Positions 18,001 to 24,000 of a stretch of 56,827 nt of DNA are shown piece by piece; position 1 is the first letter of the stretch; every line of letters begins with the position of its first letter. A program made the position numbers. Origin of the DNA: Mizuhopecten yessoensis (taxonomy: Eukaryota); NCBI RefSeq assembly GCF_002113885.1, contig NW_018408109.1:1329396-1386222 (forward strand), given 5' to 3'.

Positions 18001-21000
18001 ATTCTCTCTCTCCCCTACTCTTTATTTTCGTTGGTGTCTCTCTCCCTAGGCACCCATCTTCGTTTTACCTTATCAAACCAAATATAAACAATCAAACAGA
18101 CAAAACAATGCATAAGTCAGAAAAAGGAAAAAGAGGGGGGAAAAGTAGCTATATTTGTGTTAAGCAACATTCAAAGTTCACCTTAATGAATATGTGAAGA
18201 AATTGGATGGTCAGTGGCACAGTGCATTGGCACACTTGCCTTTTACCAAGGAAACTTGGTTGATTATAAGGCACATCGGTTGATGTTAAGAGTGTCCTTC
18301 CAGAGTTATCAAGGTACAGGTTCAAATCCTGGTCTGGTCATAACATTTTCCATATATATACATGTACATGTATTTACTTTCTTCCGAACTAAATTGCCCA
18401 CATAAGGTAATATAGGGTATTGCGTGCCTTTTGGAAAGAAATCATTGTTAAGGATCTTCTGCACATGTAGATCGAGGGAGCTGGAATATATACAAGGATA
18501 ATCCTGGAGGGGGCTACGGGGCCATAGACCCCTCCATGTTCTAATTTTCTTCAAATTTTACATAGAATGGCCCCTCCTAATTTTGTTATTGACTAAAAAT
18601 TGCTGAAAATTGTCCATTTCTCTCAAATTCCAGGATTTTCCCCGATATATATATATGCATTCTTTGTATATATGTGACAGAACCTGACAGAGACTAGTCA
18701 TTAGCGATGCAGGTTCATAACTGTAGCTTAGTTGGTCAGAGCTTCCGTATTGACTTAAATTACATTCTCCATAAATATACATCACATGTTTGATGCATTG
18801 TCAAAATAAAACGCTCTGACCCTCGTATACATTTTGATAGCTCGCTTGCATGGGTAGGATCTCCTTAATTTATCAACTTGTTGGTCTGCACAAAAGTAAA
18901 ATTGAAGTCAGGAAGTTTTGGGCTATACAAATGAAATTAGGAACATATATATCTATTTGTAAATAGGCATATACTTATACTGAAAATAAACATGTACATG
19001 TAGGTCTGTAAAATACATTAAAATCTCAAGAGCTAATAATTTAAATGAAACTCAATACTAAAAACCATTACTTGCGCTGTTGTTTACATAAACAATTAGT
19101 GGCATGCGAGGTAAGTGTATGTATATGTATGATTGTGTAGCACGCGCCACTATTGACAATGACAGCTTAGCGTACCTAGATACGAACGAGTATCGTGTCA
19201 TGACTGGCCATGACACTTGTTTATACGCCGTAAAATACCTTGTCGGAGTAAACACAGCCTCTGAATCTCCTTTTTGTATCCAACTGACAAACGACACATC
19301 ATGTTAACGGGCAACAAAAGGATATGAAGGGGCGAACCCGCACCGCTACTTTCACACTTTCAGCCATTTTTCACGTTCTTCTATTAATTGGCTGTTTCTT
19401 TAACCTCCCTTTTCAAACGGTAAGCGAAAATAATATCGACAGTCTCAATGTCATGACATTTTTTCGTGAAAATAATCACAATATTTTAAAATGAATTTAT
19501 GAATGTTTCAGCCTGCTGATATTACTTTTTATATGTTAAACACAAACGAAATCATACATGAGGGAGAAAGCCAGTAATATAGAAGAGCACATTAGTTACT
19601 TCCGTAAACAAAAGATCGACAACTGTGTTAACTTCCGATCTTAATAAAGCGCGGGAATTTTGAATGCAGTCAATCCTTTGATCAATCCGCCGCGCAGGAG
19701 TGACTTTTTTTTATACCAATTAAAAAATATAAATTCCAAAACTTTCAAAGACAATGAAGCACCCTTCTAAGATAATGAAGCACCCTTCTAAGATAATGAA
19801 GCACCCTTCTAAGACACTTCATCAGGTGACTTATAACCAACGTTTACATGACAGATTGGCGTGTATATTCTTTTCATTAGAATTGTTTTTAATATACATA
19901 ATTTATTATTTGTAAGGGTGTTGCCCTTGTTCAATAAAAGAAAGCAAACAGTTAAATTATAATTGATATTTATGACAAAATAAATTAATATTTAATTGCC
20001 AAAATGATCGCCTAAACTACATGTACAAATAAAGTTCAAACTCCAGTTCTTTATTTTTTTACAGACATAAAATATAAATACTCTACGTTATGAAATATAA
20101 CTCGGAAACTCAGAAAACTATTCTACGCCTCACTCGATCTGTTTGTCAATGGAAATAATGTCCGATAAATTCTTGCTTTTCTACACTCGGCAGTGCTTGA
20201 AACAGTTTACTGTTACACCTTCAAAAAAACAAATCTTCGCCTCGCTTCGCTCGGCAGTGAAAGTATAATTGTCCCACTCTTACAAAGAAAGAAGTTCTAG
20301 ATTTTTGTTGGCAGAAATTAGTATACATGAAGAACCGCCATTATAATTCTAATATATTAGTACCAGATCAGTGCAAAAATCTGTCTTTTTCTGAGTTTAA
20401 AATGTTTGGCAACACGTAATATTAATTCCTGGGTATAAAATGACATAACTGAAAGTTATCTCTTGCACTTGAAGTATAAATAAACAACGTTCTGGGCAAC
20501 GGGGTCTGACTTTTAGTCTGTTATTCATGTAGAAAGCTTGTCCTAACAAAATTGCTCACTGTCGCTATAGTGTCATTATAAAACCGAGTTTGACACCTTA
20601 ATCATGTAAGAGAATCGTTCATTATCACACTAGTCCTGGGTTCGATTCACAGAAGAAGTTTTTGTAGCAAACAGTGTTTTTACAGTTTCCGACACCCATA
20701 CAGTGAAAAGACAATTGCATAACGTAACTATATGGACAAAATAGAGAAGTCATTTGTGACGTCACATACTAGTTGCCTAGCTGCTTAGCAACCGTCAAAG
20801 GCGGAGATGATCAGTCTCTCCCCTCGTGTTTACGTTTTATATTAAGTCTTAGATTACCATAATGACTATCAGGTCATTCTTGCTATTTGTGGTATTGTTA
20901 AGCGCAATGCTGCAAGGTCCTGCTCAATACCTGGACCTTACATGGTAAAACGTTTGGCCTACACTTTACATATTACATGTACATATGTTTGGCGTTATTT

Positions 21001-24000
21001 CTAAATAACGTGTACAAGTTAAATCAAATGTCTCTATCCAATGTTTGCAAATGTTTAATAATAACTTTGTGGTTTTCTTTTAAGCGTGGAGCCGGAACCT
21101 GGATATGGCCGAAGAGTGTTTCATTATTTCACCGCAACTGAAATTGAGAAAGTATGTCCTACTTCTGCCGATCTGACATGGGTAAGGACTCATATATTAG
21201 TATAATTGTCTGTTCCTTTACACAGTTGAAGATTTTAACTTAATATTTAGTACCGTGTTATAATAAAATAAACTTTGCTGCACATAACACATGTGGGCCT
21301 CAAATCCCATATGTATTTCTTCCACTGGAGATGGATTTACATAAGTTGTAAAACTTGTTTCCAAATCCATTTTCAATAATAGTGTACTGTTTTCCATCAT
21401 ACCGTAAATGAAGAAAGAAAAAAAAAAGAAATACAATTAACCCTAACCCTAACTTTCTTGAATTGACGAATGTGGATCATCAGCTGTTTTAATTAAGTAC
21501 AAAACCCTGGAAATAATCATACTTTAATATATTTCAGCGAATTGGAAAGGAGATATTCTGCACTCTTCTCTGTGTGCTTCTGATGCTTTTGTTGGACTAT
21601 GTGCCGTCGATTGCAAATGGCGCCAAAGTAAGATGGCCAGCCATGGTTTCATTAGTCCGCGAATGGATCAATCGTAAGTAACATAGAGCTCGAGGATTGC
21701 AAAACTGTATGATGTTACAGTATCGGATTTCTGTATGGAATAAGAACTTCATTCATTTCAGCTATTTGTTTTTTTATTTTAGTGTTAAACACATCATCAT
21801 CTTAAAACAGTATCAAGGCACGTGAAAACAAAAGATGCTCCTCCCCGTTATTGAATATCCAATACATTCGGTACAATTTTAATATATGAGCTTTTGAGCT
21901 TTCCTTTTGGATGAACTAAGGAATCGGACGTTGTTTTCGTGATACCGTTTTCTAAATCACTTAAACAGGTCCTGCCCCGTCGTAAAATACATATTTGTGC
22001 TTGGTAAGATCAGTTCCCCTTTTGTAATATACATATGTGTGCTTGAACAGGTCCTGCCCTCTGTCGTTGCATACCTATTGGTGCTTGAACAGTCCAACCC
22101 ATGTTGTAACATACGTGTACATTTTTGTGCTTATACAGGTCCTTCCCGCTGTCGTCACTGCGGTACTGCCCCATGTCAGGTCAAATGGAAATGCTTATGG
22201 AAGACCAAAGGATTTCGTAAGAGGGACAGCGCCAATTTTGTGGAGCGGTCAAAGGCCATGATGGTATTCAACTATGGACTATCGATATCAGTGGAACTGA
22301 CTAAAGAGCTGCCACTGGATGACCTGTTCTTGGAGAGGTGGTTCTGCCAGCGATTTGAGGAGGAGCACATGGTGTTGTTCCCACAGTGTATCCAGCGCCA
22401 TATCAACTACTGGTACCCCGTCCCTCGCTAGGTAGGTAGTTTGTTCGTAAGTTTCTTAAAGCCTATTGTCTCCTGAAAAATAACACGTTTGGAAAGATAT
22501 CGGGGATTAAAGGAGCAATGCATTTTATCAGAATATGTAAACTGTTCTCTTTTTGGTATTGTTTCGAACATGTAACAATTTTGACCGGTACATCTTCACC
22601 AGTGGAAAAAAATGTCTTATCTAATAAAAGTTAAATAATGACTTCAAAATGATTGAAATGTTGCAAAATAATTCGTTAATTTTCTTTTCAGATTCATGGC
22701 ACCAATCATCAGGAAGAACATCGATGAGATGAAAGTCGATTATGGAATGGACAGTGTTGACTTTGTGTGATAAAGTCTTATCGGTTTCACTGATTCGATG
22801 TACATGTATATAATGAAATATTAACTGCTAGTAGTCATATACATGTAGATGGAGTCAATGCTGGCTGTATTTAACTTGTCAGTTATTACTATGTAGAATT
22901 TTTAACTGTTTTAATGGTCAATTATTTACAGAGCCTATGCTGGTCAAATTTACCAATTTATAACCTAGTTTACCCTGCATTGGCCAGTACTGGTCCGATG
23001 TTTTTGTTCTGGACAGTTCATATATGGGTCAATATAGTAAGTCTGTGTACTATTATTGCTACACTGTATACAAAAGTTTGGCTATTTTTGTAATGGACAG
23101 TTGTGTGTTTGGAGATTTTATTTGTGATAAAAAAAAACACGAGAGAAATTAAATATATTATTTATTATTTTCATGTCCTATCGTTTTGCTAATCCTCGAC
23201 TCATCTTACGTTGTAGACTTAGGTCAGAAACTCTTACAGCGATATAACACAGGCAATGGGAATGGTCTTATTCGACACACATGGCGCAATAAGGTCTGAT
23301 GAGCCTGTCTGATCCGACACCCTGTGGGACAACACGTTTGTCAGATTAACTTGTCTAAAACGACACACTGTGGGACACATCATGTTTGTCAGATTAACCT
23401 GGCTAAAACGACACACTGTGGGACACAACATGTTTGTCAGATTAACCTGTCTAAAACGACACACTGTGGGACACAACACGTTTGTCAGGTTAACCTGTCT
23501 AAAACGACACACTGTGGTACACAACACTTTTGTCAGATTAACCTGTCTAAAACGACACACTGTGGGAAACATAACGTTTGTCACATTAGCCTGTCTAAAA
23601 CCACACACTGTGGGACACAACACTTTTGTCAGATTAACCTCTCTAAAACGACACACTGTGGGACACAACACGTTTGTCGGATTAACTTGTCTAAAACGAC
23701 ACACTCTGGGACCCAACACGTTTGTCAGATTAACCTGTCTAAAACGACACACTATGGGACACAACACGTTTGTCAGATTAACCTGTCTAAAACGACCCAC
23801 TCTGGGACACAACATGTTTGTCAGATTAACCTGTCTAAAACGACACACTGTGGGACACATCATGTTTGTCAGATTAACCTGTCTAAAACGACCCACTCTG
23901 GGACACAACATGTTTGTCAGATTAACCTGTCTAAAACGACCCACTCTGGGACACAACATGTTTGTCAGATTAACCTGTCTAAAACGACACACTGCGGCTG

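What the first reader, a model, noticed from the sequence alone, without database searches (positions are those of the whole stretch)
20862..22770. Uncharacterised receptor-like gene: signal peptide, tiny two-Cys ectodomain, one TM, and a P2X7-ballast-like Cys domain
Seen: four phase-compatible exons give a hydrophobic leader, an ectodomain of about 40 aa with two Cys, a TM segment, then CRHCGTAPC...N...R...F and FPQCIQRHINYWYP. Only exon 4 is visible in the ORF track. Established: the P2X7 cytoplasmic ballast is a Zn- and guanine-nucleotide-binding domain ending in an LPxCxxxxIRxxFP-type motif, and related domains occur in invertebrate proteins. Inference: this may be a new single-pass membrane architecture for that domain.
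Basis: partly seen in the sequence, partly recalled or inferred. Interest (0 to 1): 0.65.

Follow-up and report, generated by a model that had tools for sequence, protein, structure and literature searches.

The report
Scallop-only single-pass membrane protein gene
This is a real four-exon gene of the Yesso scallop for a small membrane protein with a cysteine-bearing inner domain, one of a many-copy family seen only in scallops; its suggested kinship with the tail of the P2X7 receptor was not borne out by the tests that could be run.

Summary
Four GT..AG exons (20862-20944, 21085-21181, 21538-21673, 22139-22431; 609 nt) encode a 202-aa protein. Each exon peptide is 100% identical to the database protein 'uncharacterized protein LOC110458353 [Mizuhopecten yessoensis]'. 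The layout is leader, about 44-aa ectodomain with two conserved Cys, one TM segment, then a 96-aa cytoplasmic Cys domain.

It belongs to a family of 52 held proteins. All 47 named ones come from four scallop genera, 26 from M. yessoensis, with species-specific expansions. No Pfam family is assigned.

The ballast reading is not supported at sequence level:
- Pfam gave no P2RX7_C match for 0 of 45 members.
- Six PDB searches returned no P2X7 chain.
- The three published ZCD cysteine motifs each match 0 of 52.
- Only a relaxed tail motif (40 of 52) and an R-x2-A-x3-F spacing resemble ZCD.

The fold test could not be run, because structure prediction stayed closed.

Best reading: a scallop-restricted type I membrane protein whose four invariant cytoplasmic Cys probably hold one zinc. 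A reduced ballast relic remains possible (about 0.2).

The parts
20862..20944 (+). Exon 1: start codon, hydrophobic leader (residues 1-21, likely cleaved after G19-P20-A21), start of the ectodomain, and the first two bases of the Cys28 codon
   Evidence: The peptide is 100% identical to P0027 residues 1-27. The donor is GT. Kyte-Doolittle maximum is 2.34. G19 and P20 are conserved in 90% or more of members. The cleavage site is inferred from the -3/-1 rule; SignalP was not available.
21085..21181 (+). Exon 2: the rest of the Cys28 codon and ectodomain residues 29-60, including invariant Cys52 (21155-21157)
   Evidence: 100% identical to P0027 residues 29-60. AG/GT sites confirmed. C52 is present in 33 of 33 members and C28 in 31 of 33. 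It is 41% identical to the most divergent paralogue P0007, E 6e-9.
21538..21673 (+). Exon 3: end of the ectodomain, TM segment (residues 66-86, 21553-21615), basic juxtamembrane stretch, and the first base of the Arg106 codon
   Evidence: 100% identical to P0027 residues 61-105. Kyte-Doolittle 15-mer is 2.72. Net charge is -0.58 in the 15 aa before the TM segment and +3.88 in the 20 aa after it, as means of 33 members. The alternative donor at 21628 would end in phase 0 and not fit exon 4.
22139..22431 (+). Exon 4: the whole cytoplasmic Cys domain (residues 107-202) and stop codon TAG
   Evidence: 100% identical to P0027 residues 107-202. phmmer against 1.84 billion representatives gave 8 family hits, best 4e-39. 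This is the most conserved region: mean pairwise identity 0.70, and 0.84 for the last 18 aa.
22150..22176 (+). Cys knuckle C110-x2-C113-G-x3-C118 (CRHCGTAPC)
   Evidence: C110, C113, P117 and C118 are invariant in 33 of 33. C..C....C occurs in 47 of 52 proteins. There are weak sub-threshold matches to Zn_ribbon_IS1595 (6 of 45, best E 0.015) and Fer4_11 (3 of 45).
22246..22269 (+).
   Evidence: R142 is invariant; A145 and F149 are conserved in 90% or more. R..A...[FY] occurs in 44 of 52. The spacing equals that of R546/A549/Y-F553 listed by Rump 2020.
22375..22419 (+). Tail motif L185-F-P-x-C189-I-Q-R-x-I194-x3-Y198-P199, three residues before the C-terminus
   Evidence: F186, P187, C189, I190 and P199 are invariant. 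The relaxed pattern [LIVF]PxCx4Ix3[FY]P occurs in 40 of 52; the published ZCD form occurs in 0 of 52.
21946..22155 (+). 42-46-nt tandem repeat at the end of intron 3. It contains the true acceptor and the first 17 nt of exon 4, plus two decoy acceptors (21966, 22048).
   Evidence: Repeat families D1 and D2. CAG|GTCC occurs at 21966, 22048 and 22136. Reading from the decoys in the exon-4 phase meets stops after 4 and 11 codons.
22432..22770 (+).
   Evidence: The candidate peptide 22702-22767 had no hit to family proteins and no Pfam match. ATTAAA lies at 22506 and AATAAA at 22623.

Best explanation
**What it is.** This is the annotated but uncharacterised gene LOC110458353 of the Yesso scallop, Mizuhopecten yessoensis. 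It encodes a 202-aa type I single-pass membrane protein. It is one copy of a many-copy family that appears only in scallops (Pectinidae).

**Shown here.**
- The four-exon structure and its identity to the database protein.
- The family, its taxonomic range and its species-specific expansions.
- The conserved parts.
- The cytoplasmic domain, encoded by exon 4 alone, is the most constrained part.

**Inferred.**
- The leader is cleaved, so about 44 residues with two cysteines lie outside the cell. The positive-inside charge pattern puts the 96-aa Cys domain in the cytoplasm.
- The four invariant cytoplasmic cysteines are a CxxCG knuckle (C110, C113), then C118, then C189 in the tail motif. They most likely hold one structural zinc ion that ties the start of the domain to its C-terminal helix.
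- The basic stretch after the knuckle has a mean net charge of +6.8 over 26 residues. It would lie against the acidic inner leaflet or hold an acidic partner.

**Most likely working.** It acts as a membrane-anchored adaptor. A fast-evolving short outer part and TM segment meet a ligand or partner membrane protein. A conserved zinc-stabilised inner module passes this on by binding cytoplasmic partners.

**Family status.** It is not a demonstrable member of the P2X7 ballast/ZCD family. The likeness to that domain is at motif level only.
For: **Gene model.** Four exons have GT..AG sites and matching phases. Each exon peptide is 100% identical to P0027, 'uncharacterized protein LOC110458353 [Mizuhopecten yessoensis]'.

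**Family.**
- phmmer of the exon 4 peptide against 1.84 billion representatives gave 10 hits at E<=0.001. Eight are family. I dropped P0008 and P0010, which are long internally repetitive proteins.
- The profile search gave 43 proteins at E<=1 among 1122 candidates. All are family and none has a precomputed Pfam domain.
- Of 52 held family proteins, 47 carry names: 26 M. yessoensis, 9 Pecten maximus, 8 Ylistrum balloti and 4 Argopecten irradians.
- No longer fused forms appeared: 0 of 5644 candidates.
- No prokaryotic relatives were found.

**Expansions.** The careful tree used 42 rows; 10 fragmentary rows were left out. It gives a 13-copy M. yessoensis clade (support 100/99), a 7-copy Y. balloti clade (100/98) and a 3-copy A. 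irradians clade (100/100). The 26 M. yessoensis clusters lie on at least 24 different contig lengths, so the copies are dispersed.

**Architecture.** 28 of 52 proteins pass strict tests for all five parts. The rest are truncated models or miss a regular expression by one residue.

**Topology.** Net charge is -0.58 before the TM segment and +3.88 after it.

**Constraint.**
- Mean pairwise identity is 0.70 for the Cys domain and 0.84 for its last 18 aa. It is 0.59 for the ectodomain, 0.50 for the TM segment and 0.41 for the juxtamembrane stretch.
- Within the Y. balloti clade the values are 0.94 against 0.70, 0.54 and 0.49 (6 of its 7 members).

**Cysteines.** C110, C113, C118 and C189 are present in 33 of 33 members.

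**Zinc-knuckle flavour (sub-threshold only).** Zn_ribbon_IS1595 matched 6 of 45 members, best E 0.015, over residues 98-127 in Ylistrum copies that read CPHCG. Ribosomal protein eL37 recurred at E about 2 in two PDB searches.

**Nothing competes.** No Rfam family, tRNA or Pfam-matching ORF lies on either strand of the locus.
Against: Whether the annotator's model rests on RNA data could not be seen. One intronless 200-aa family ORF on a 1235-nt unnamed contig (P0002) hints at a spliced mRNA, but that is inference.

**Untested inferences.**
- Signal-peptide cleavage and topology rest on hydropathy, the -3/-1 rule and charge counts, not on SignalP or DeepTMHMM.
- Zinc binding is inferred from four invariant Cys only. 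An iron-sulfur cluster or disulfides are not excluded.
- The adaptor function is a guess from architecture. No partner is known.

**Poor structural models.** The Atlas's own ESM model of the protein is poor (pLDDT 0.46, pTM 0.21). The domain may fold only with metal or a partner, or may be partly disordered.

**Unexplained likeness to ZCD.** The motif-level resemblance is left unexplained by this reading: tail motif, R-x2-A-x3-F spacing, single exon and C-terminal position.
Confidence: 0.58

Rival explanations
1. Reduced ballast relic. On this reading exon 4 descends from a ZCD/KolX (P2X7-ballast-type) domain. It has lost the second cysteine cluster and about 45 residues, and gained about 21 residues before the tail motif. 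It keeps one of the two zinc sites, built from three N-terminal Cys and the tail Cys. A small membrane-protein gene in the scallop ancestor would have captured it as a single exon, much as a P2X4-like gene captured KolX to give P2X7.
For: - The relaxed tail motif [LIVF]PxCx4Ix3[FY]P occurs in 40 of 52 proteins. It places P187, C189, I194, Y198 and P199 on P570, C572, I577, F/Y581 and P582.
- R142, A145 and F149 have the spacing of R546, A549 and Y/F553, which Rump 2020 lists as conserved across Metazoa.
- A three-Cys cluster containing 'CG' opens the domain, as in PxWCxCx2C.
- The domain sits at the C-terminus in one exon, as ZCD does in P2X7 exon 13.
- There is a precedent for Cys-poor partial forms. 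[quoted passage not shown]
- ZCD genes exist in molluscs such as oyster and limpet.
Against: - Pfam gave no P2RX7_C match at E<=10 for 5 window peptides, 8 homologues or 45 members.
- No P2X7 chain appeared in six PDB searches at E<=10, including two family profiles and the last 30 aa alone.
- The strict ZCD motifs 1, 2 and 3 each match 0 of 52. Even the relaxed C.C..C and CC-x(3-6)-C match 0 of 52.
- Y550, which Rump calls 'strikingly conserved', is Met here. W559 and R578 are absent.
- The family has 4 conserved Cys, not 7-8.
- Two large indels must be assumed.
- The relaxed motif was chosen after seeing the sequence. From typical residue frequencies it should arise by chance about once in 2 x 10^7 positions, roughly 0.5 times per proteome (my estimate, not a tool result).
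- ZCD genes number fewer than 10 per species and lack TM regions. This family has 26 clusters in one species.
Confidence: 0.2
2. Membrane-tethered factor released by intramembrane cleavage. The natural ectodomain is only about 44 residues. The protein could therefore be cut directly by gamma-secretase-type proteases. That would free the basic, zinc-binding cytoplasmic domain to act elsewhere, for example in the nucleus.
For: - It has type I topology with a very short ectodomain.
[quoted passage not shown] For PMC4490565 and PMC9549706 I saw only the abstract starts in the search listing.
- The basic stretch 119-144 has a mean net charge of +6.8. A bipartite-NLS-like pattern is present in 23 of 33 members.
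Against: - The NLS-like pattern is absent from the window's own protein.
- There is no DNA-binding or transcription-factor family match.
- The argument rests on architecture alone; nothing was tested.
- This is an add-on to the best explanation rather than a true alternative to it.
Confidence: 0.08
3. Iron-sulfur site. On this reading the four invariant Cys bind a [4Fe-4S] or [2Fe-2S] cluster rather than zinc, making the domain a membrane-bound redox or sensor module.
For: The CxHCxxxPC string resembles a ferredoxin motif. Weak matches:
- Fer4_11 in 3 of 45 members, best E 0.041, and Fer4_20 in 1 of 45
- formate hydrogenlyase subunit 2, E 4.4
- formate dehydrogenase beta subunit, E 1.7
Against: - All matches are far below the curated cut-offs and cover the 9-residue motif only.
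- The fourth Cys with following Pro that closes the ferredoxin motif is missing; residue 122 is Lys or Arg.
- There is only one Cys set in the domain, not a dicluster.
- Cytoplasmic tails of animal membrane proteins that bind Fe-S are rare (my knowledge).
Confidence: 0.05
4. Decaying or non-functional copy. On this reading the window's gene is a dispersed duplicate that is annotated but no longer used.
For: - It is a lone, fairly divergent copy: 73% identical to its nearest paralogue P0021, with an end branch of 0.26.
- The acceptor of exon 4 lies in a tandem repeat with two decoy acceptors that lead to early stops.
- It carries a non-conserved Asp83 in the TM end and lacks the NLS-like pattern.
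- Several family entries are truncated or fused models.
Against: - The frame is open over all four exons with intact canonical splice sites.
- Every invariant family residue is kept: C52, C110, C113, P117, C118, R142, L153, F186, P187, C189, I190, P199, P201.
- Exon 4 is 77% identical to its best-matching paralogue (P0036), and 70-75% to most others.
Confidence: 0.05

Closest known systems
P2X7 cytoplasmic ballast / Zn-coordinating cysteine domain (ZCD; PANTHER PTHR36981; KolX protein of Kolobok Kol0 transposons)
   Same: - It is a C-terminal domain encoded by one exon.
- It opens with a three-Cys cluster containing 'CG'.
- R-x2-A-x3-[FY] has the spacing of R546/A549/Y-F553.
- It ends with [LIVF]PxCx4Ix3[FY]P, which aligns with P570, C572, I577, F/Y581 and P582.
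- It is cytoplasmic and tethered to a membrane protein, as in P2X7 itself.

   Different: - It has 4 invariant Cys instead of 7-8.
- Cluster 2 (LCCRx3GxC) is absent, and cluster 1 spacing is C-x2-C-x4-C, not C-x-C-x2-C.
- Y550, W559 and R578 are not kept.
- About 21 extra residues lie before the tail motif. The domain is about 96 aa against about 120 aa (residues 476-595).
- The Px5Y[ST]G end is missing.
- There is no Pfam or PDB sequence or profile match.
- There are 26 clusters in one species against fewer than 10, and non-vertebrate ZCD proteins have no TM region.
CPxCG-type zinc knuckles / zinc ribbons (weak matches: Pfam Zn_ribbon_IS1595; ribosomal protein eL37)
   Same: A C-[RP]-H-C-G knuckle is followed by a strongly basic stretch. 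Ylistrum copies read CPHCG. That CPxCG is the classic knuckle is recalled, not taken from a call.
   Different: There is no second CxxC knuckle. The other two candidate ligands are single Cys residues 5 and 76 residues further on. All matches are below threshold: E 0.015 to about 2, at 11-14 bits.
Type I receptors with naturally short ectodomains (BCMA, Fn14)
   Same: All have one TM segment, an ectodomain of only about 40-55 residues stabilised by cysteines, and a cytoplasmic signalling tail. Such proteins can be cut directly by gamma-secretase (abstract starts in the listing).
   Different: There is no sequence similarity. The ectodomain has two Cys, not a TNFR-type cysteine-rich domain. The cytoplasmic domain is a Cys4 module, not a TRAF-binding tail. 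This is a likeness of architecture only.
End of the LRRCT cap plus TM segment of platelet glycoprotein Ib beta
   Same: The family profile aligns its 'YRDLxCVxP...C' ectodomain and TM segment to that region (12.5 bits).
   Different: The E-value is 0.74, which is not significant. Pfam LRRCT matched 0 of 45 members. The exon 2 peptide alone found nothing in PDB. There are no leucine-rich repeats.

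Membership tests
P2X7 ballast / ZCD (Rump 2020) | Cys cluster 1: PxWCxCx2C | tested here: not met
   0 of 52 family proteins match, and 0 of 52 match even C.C..C. The family instead has C..C....C, in 47 of 52.
P2X7 ballast / ZCD (Rump 2020) | Cys cluster 2: LCCRx3GxCITT[ST] | tested here: not met
   0 of 52 match, and the relaxed CC-x(3-6)-C also matches 0 of 52. No conserved Cys lies between C118 and C189 apart from C175, present in 23 of 33.
P2X7 ballast / ZCD (Rump 2020) | Cys cluster 3: (L/I/V)PSC(C/S)x3IRx2(F/Y)Px5Y(S/T)G | tested here: inconclusive
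   The published form matches 0 of 52. The relaxed [LIVF]PxCx4Ix3[FY]P matches 40 of 52. The Y[ST]G end matches 0 of 52, because the proteins stop 3-5 residues after the Pro.
P2X7 ballast / ZCD (Rump 2020) | Seven to eight conserved Zn-coordinating cysteines (dinuclear site) | tested here: not met
   Four invariant cytoplasmic Cys: C110, C113, C118 and C189.
P2X7 ballast / ZCD (Rump 2020) | Conserved R546, A549, Y550, Y/F553, W559, R578, F/Y581-P582 | tested here: inconclusive
   If aligned by spacing, R142, A145, F149 and Y198-P199 fit. Y550 becomes Met146, there is no Trp at +13, and R578 becomes Asn or Asp195. I made this alignment by eye, not by a program.
P2X7 ballast / ZCD | Match to the Pfam model of the domain (P2RX7_C; the name and accession PF20478 are recalled) | tested here: not met
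   No match at E<=10 for 5 window peptides, 8 homologues or 45 members. No positive control could be run, because no true ZCD sequence was on hand.
P2X7 ballast / ZCD | Sequence or profile similarity to solved full-length P2X7 chains | tested here: not met
   No P2X7 chain at E<=10. These returned 1, 2, 0, 12, 15 and 0 hits, all other proteins.
P2X7 ballast / ZCD | Ballast fold | not testable with these tools
The one accepted job was interrupted. The Atlas's own model is too poor to judge (pLDDT 0.46); its nearest models have TM<=0.36 and none is a P2X7 family.
P2X7 ballast / ZCD | Binds Zn and GDP/GTP | not testable with these tools
   This needs the purified domain.
P2X7 ballast / ZCD | [quoted passage not shown] | tested here: met
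   Exon 4 encodes residues 107-202 and the stop. Rump reports that ZCD is always C-terminal and lies in P2X7 exon 13.
Type I single-pass membrane protein | N-terminal cleavable leader, one TM segment, positive-inside charge | tested here: met
   Kyte-Doolittle maxima are 2.34 (leader) and 2.72 (TM). The G-P-A site is conserved. Charge is -0.58 outside and +3.88 inside. These are simple measures only; no SignalP or DeepTMHMM was run.
Zinc ribbon / zinc knuckle | Two CxxC-type knuckles; match to a Pfam zinc-ribbon model above its cut-off | tested here: not met
   There is one knuckle only. Zn_ribbon_IS1595 matched 6 of 45 members, best E 0.015, at 11.7-14.3 bits in the three members checked against a cut-off of 25.4.
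4Fe-4S ferredoxin (Fer4_11 and kin) | CxxCxxCxxxCP-type motif sets; Pfam match above the cut-off | tested here: not met
   Fer4_11 matched 3 of 45 members, best E 0.041. The closing Cys-Pro is absent.
LRRCT cap | Match to Pfam LRRCT; four-Cys cap after leucine-rich repeats | tested here: not met
   0 of 45 members matched. There are only two Cys and no repeats. The PDB GPIb-beta match has E 0.74.

The most novel reading that the evidence does not exclude
Exon 4 could be a minimal, half-site descendant of the transposon-borne KolX/ZCD (P2X7 ballast) domain. It would keep one of the two zinc sites and the tail helix. A small type I membrane-protein gene in the scallop ancestor would have captured it, and the gene then multiplied to more than 20 copies per genome. 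That would be a second, independent case of a membrane protein acquiring a ballast-type domain. It would also be the first membrane-tethered one outside vertebrates, since Rump 2020 reports non-vertebrate ZCD proteins 'without transmembrane region'. It would give a 96-residue natural minimal version for asking what the ballast core does.
Probability: 0.2. Interest if true: 0.65.

Novelty: new member of a known kind. Interest (0 to 1): 0.3.

Why it matters
**As it stands.** This is an ordinary lineage-restricted ('orphan') gene family. It is real, conserved, multi-copy and annotated only as 'uncharacterized protein'. None of the 12 family locus names I searched appears in the main text of a held paper.

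**Its value.**
- It defines a compact domain that Pfam does not describe, with four invariant Cys and a near-invariant C-terminal LFPxCIQRQINYWYPxPR.
- It shows that scallops have expanded the family independently in each genus. That pattern is often seen in genes that meet the environment or pathogens.

**If the ballast link were confirmed.** It would bear on an open question, namely what the ZCD/ballast core does. It would offer a much smaller, membrane-tethered natural variant, and a second example of a membrane protein capturing a domain that Kojima and Bao trace to Kolobok transposons.

Tried and rejected
**Structure prediction.**
I tried again only after 20 or more other calls each time. 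It was accepted once, polled, and reported as interrupted and not counted. No model was obtained, so fold search was never possible.
The stored protein P0027 gave only chance-level neighbours (Wnt, 0.77). With Wnt left out there was no usable hit. The Atlas's own model had pLDDT 0.46.
- Complex prediction, two copies of the exon 4 domain with Zn (collected): 'no answer (no support, and no evidence against)'. The score was 0.00 against a mark of 0.32, and the chain's own fold was uncertain. This says nothing either way about self-association.

**Databases that gave nothing.**
Names came from the search for homologous proteins instead.
- NCBIfam and PHROGs found nothing for 3 exon peptides and 3 homologues.
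- Prokaryotic genome contigs: 24 pattern matches, none a relative.
- The search for longer fused forms gave 0 of 5644 candidates.

**Checks at the locus.**
- No terminal inverted or direct repeats flank the gene, so nothing suggests it rides in a transposon.
- No Rfam family or tRNA lies at the locus or anywhere in the window.
- ORFs on the opposite strand and in introns gave no Pfam match, apart from one DUF at E 0.021.
- The fifth-exon candidate 22702-22767 was rejected: no family match and no Pfam match.
- The alternative exon 3 donor at 21628 was rejected: it ends in phase 0 and does not fit exon 4.

**Leads rejected.**
- The LRRCT lead from GPIb-beta is not significant (E 0.74). The exon 2 peptide alone found nothing.
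- The bipartite-NLS idea is not general. The pattern is in 23 of 33 members and absent from the window's copy.

**Literature.**
- McCarthy 2019 (PMC7053488) is not held. I know the ballast structure only through passages of papers that cite it.
- The two synteny markers of Rump's Figure 6 are not named in the text, so synteny with the window's neighbours could not be compared.

Full report
**1. What is in the sequence**

Reading 20500-23200 and checking the junctions gives four exons on the + strand:

| Exon | Coordinates | Length |
|---|---|---|
| 1 | 20862-20944 | 83 nt |
| 2 | 21085-21181 | 97 nt |
| 3 | 21538-21673 | 136 nt |
| 4 | 22139-22431 | 293 nt |

- Every intron begins GT and ends AG. 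The introns are 140, 356 and 465 nt long.
- The exons sum to 609 nt. The split codons read TG|C (Cys) and C|GT (Arg).
- The joined step was left out: I never built, typed or searched a joined protein of my own.

**2. The model is confirmed by a public protein**

- phmmer of the exon 4 peptide (96 aa) against 1.84 billion representatives found 10 proteins at E<=0.001.
  - Eight are relatives. The best is P0001, 202 aa, 71% identical, aligned to its residues 107-202.
  - I dropped P0008 and P0010, which are long internally repetitive proteins.
- A search with P0001 listed 43 proteins. One of them, P0027, is 'uncharacterized protein LOC110458353 [Mizuhopecten yessoensis]', 202 aa.
- Local BLASTP shows each exon peptide is 100% identical to P0027, at residues 1-27, 29-60, 61-105 and 107-202. 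P0027 has Cys at 28 and Arg at 106.
- The window is therefore Yesso scallop DNA, not human.
- All whole-length work below uses the stored record P0027, not a joined model.

**3. The family**

- A profile of 33 full-length members (alignment A1) found 43 proteins at E<=1 among 1122 candidates. All are family and none has a precomputed Pfam domain.
- No longer proteins matched: 0 of 5644 candidates. No prokaryotic loci matched.
- I hold 52 family proteins. The 47 with names are 26 M. yessoensis, 9 Pecten maximus, 8 Ylistrum balloti and 4 Argopecten irradians.
- Of the five unnamed ones, three are 87-94% identical to named scallop proteins. Two are divergent: P0002 at 49% and P0009 at 51%. Their origin is unknown and was not pursued.
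- A careful maximum-likelihood tree used 42 rows. The 10 fragmentary rows left out were P0003-6, P0009, P0042, P0049-51 and P0054. It shows:
  - a 13-copy M. yessoensis clade (support 100/99)
  - a 7-copy Y. balloti clade (100/98)
  - a 3-copy A. irradians clade (100/100)
  - a P. maximus pair (100/100)
- The window's copy is a lone branch, 73% identical to its nearest paralogue P0021.
- The 26 M. yessoensis clusters lie on at least 24 different contig lengths, so the copies are dispersed.
- No repeats flank the window's copy.

**4. Anatomy and constraint**

- Invariant residues in A1: C52, C110, C113, P117, C118, R142, L153, F186, P187, C189, I190, P199 and P201. C28 is present in 31 of 33.
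- The leader has a Kyte-Doolittle maximum of 2.34 and ends in the conserved G19-P20-A21. The TM segment (residues 66-86) scores 2.72.
- Net charge is -0.58 before the TM segment and +3.88 after it. The N-terminus is therefore outside and the Cys domain inside. This is inference; no SignalP or DeepTMHMM was available.
- Mean pairwise identity by region:

| Region | Identity |
|---|---|
| Leader | 0.59 |
| Ectodomain | 0.59 |
| TM segment | 0.50 |
| Juxtamembrane stretch | 0.41 |
| Cys domain | 0.70 |
| Last 18 residues | 0.84 |

- Within the young Y. balloti clade the Cys domain is 0.94 identical, against 0.70 for the ectodomain, 0.54 for the TM segment and 0.49 for the juxtamembrane stretch (6 of its 7 members).
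- Residues 119-144 are strongly basic, with a mean net charge of +6.8.
- The cytoplasmic domain is thus the constrained part, and the outer and membrane parts drift faster.

**5. Is the domain a P2X7 ballast?**

*The definition used.* Rump et al. 2020 (PMC7016195; I read passages) define the ZCD by three clusters:
- PxWCxCx2C
- LCCRx3GxCITT[ST]
- (L/I/V)PSC(C/S)x3IRx2(F/Y)Px5Y(S/T)G

That makes seven or eight Cys. They also list conserved R546, A549, Y550, Y/F553, W559, I/V568, P570, C572, R578 and F/Y581-P582.

*Tests against.*
- Each published cluster matches 0 of 52 family proteins.
- Pfam hmmscan at E<=10 gave nothing of the P2X7 kind for 5 window peptides, 8 homologues or 45 members. The model's name is recalled, and I had no true ZCD sequence for a positive control.
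- Six PDB searches at E<=10 never listed a P2X7 chain. They used the exon 4 peptide, the exon 2 peptide, the last 30 residues, P0007 and two family profiles.
- The best PDB hits were chance-level: Rpo10, GPIb-beta, ferredoxin-type subunits and ribosomal protein eL37.

*Points in favour.*
- The relaxed tail pattern is present in 40 of 52 proteins. It aligns P187, C189, I194, Y198 and P199 with P570, C572, I577, F/Y581 and P582.
- R142, A145 and F149 have the spacing of R546, A549 and Y/F553.
- The domain is C-terminal and lies in one exon.
- Kojima and Bao 2022 (PMC9587614; passages) report that ballast domains are KolX proteins of Kolobok transposons. [quoted passage not shown] Their additional files, which I could not see, may bear on this.

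*Why I give the link about 0.2.*
- Y550 and R578 are not kept.
- Two large indels are needed.
- The relaxed motif was picked after the fact.
The Atlas's own model is too poor to use (pLDDT 0.46).

**6. How it most likely works**

- Four invariant Cys in a 3+1 layout, the first two in a CxxCG knuckle (CPHCG in Ylistrum copies), point to one structural zinc. That zinc would tie the start of the domain to its C-terminal helix.
- The only, sub-threshold, database echoes are zinc-ribbon and eL37-type knuckles followed by basic tails.
- I read the protein as a membrane-anchored adaptor with a variable short outer part and a conserved zinc-stabilised inner module.
- Direct intramembrane cleavage, as for short-ectodomain receptors (abstract starts only), is a possible add-on.
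- An Fe-S site and a decaying copy are minor rivals.

**7. What stayed unchecked**

- RNA-seq support for the junctions.
- Orthologues and synteny in other molluscs.
- Supplementary tables of scallop expression papers that may list family locus names. Twelve names appear in 0 held main texts.
- The fold comparison.

**8. Verdict**

The gene is real but already annotated as uncharacterised, and it belongs to a scallop-only, many-copy family. The ballast interpretation is a lead that failed every sequence-level membership test and awaits a fold or HHpred test. Interest is modest.

Noticed in passing
window 21946-22155: The end of intron 3 is a 42-46-nt tandem repeat of about 5 units. It includes the real acceptor and the first 17 nt of exon 4. 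Two decoy acceptors (CAG|GTCC at 21966 and 22048) would give stops after 4 and 11 codons. The second decoy still reads like the start of exon 4 (PALCRC...).
   Followed up: yes
window 20757-20764 (also 24767, 24798, 43826): A perfect CRE-type palindrome, TGACGTCA, lies 98 nt upstream of the start codon (its last base, 20764, to the ATG at 20862). The window holds 4 copies against 0.6 expected; 1 of 100 shuffles reached 4.
   Followed up: partly
window 23304-23994: A 48-bp minisatellite of 14.4 copies, 91% matching, lies just downstream of the gene. It is open in three frames purely because of the repeat.
   Followed up: partly
window 11409-11903 and 16880-17155, minus strand: These are kinesin-3-type motor exons: Pfam Kinesin at 4e-18, and best PDB chain 7wrg 'kinesin-like protein' at 3e-27 and 5e-15. 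The second exon matches residues 16-84 of that chain. The kinesin gene therefore starts near 17.2 kb and lies head-to-head with the finding, about 3.7 kb away. The name KIF28 was not tested.
   Followed up: partly
window about 28176-32842, 39874-43941, 46267-51386, plus strand: Three tandem paralogues of a diamine (spermidine/spermine) acetyltransferase-like GNAT gene.
- Four exon blocks each recur three times at 69-84% DNA identity.
- The first exons read MADYNMRPAVEGDCEEILRLIQ, MLDYNIRPAVDKDCEEITRLRQ and MTDYKIRPAVEDDVEEILRLIQ.
- Two GNAT exons are 67% identical as protein.
- The best PDB match is diamine acetyltransferase 2, 1e-14.

   Followed up: partly
window 36588-40991 (ORFs 38187-39197 and 37407-38114, minus strand): A mobile-element remnant. 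A tyrosine-recombinase ORF (Phage_integrase 1.5e-5, below the cut-off) is followed by a GDSL/SGNH-like ORF. Both lie between 131-nt inverted repeats (83% complementary) at 36588-36718 and 40861-40991. The right arm falls inside the second acetyltransferase copy. No reverse transcriptase was found in the ORFs tested.
   Followed up: partly
window 24908-25246, minus strand: A rhodopsin-type GPCR exon fragment containing a DRC motif (7tm_1 at 4e-4, below the cut-off). It lies tail-to-tail with the finding. No further exons were found among ORFs of 55 aa or more up to 31 kb.
   Followed up: partly
window 1045-2572, 7106-9103, 10348-10738: Three satellite arrays lie in the span of the kinesin gene: 52 bp x 29 copies, 35 bp x 56 copies and 95 bp x 4.1 copies.
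   Followed up: no
window 12160-12245, 13759-13844, 15010-15091, 15896-15980, 32166-32241: An element of about 85 nt is present five times in both orientations, at 80-92% identity. It looks like a MITE or SINE.
   Followed up: no
family profile, residues 21-97 of P0027 (window exons 1-3): The ectodomain plus TM profile aligns weakly to the end of the LRRCT cap and the TM segment of platelet glycoprotein Ib beta (E 0.74, 12.5 bits). This is not significant. The Pfam LRRCT model matched 0 of 45 members, and the exon 2 peptide alone found nothing in PDB.
   Followed up: partly
proteins P0003, P0005, P0022 (family members, not in the window): Some family entries are odd models.
- P0005 (276 aa) starts mid-domain and reads on past the usual stop into a coiled-coil region.
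- P0003 carries the domain followed by an acidic tail.
- P0022 (263 aa) has a different N-terminus in place of the leader.

These are probably annotation or assembly variants.
   Followed up: no
window 21438-21453: (TAACCC) x 2.7, a short telomere-type hexamer run, lies inside intron 2.
   Followed up: no
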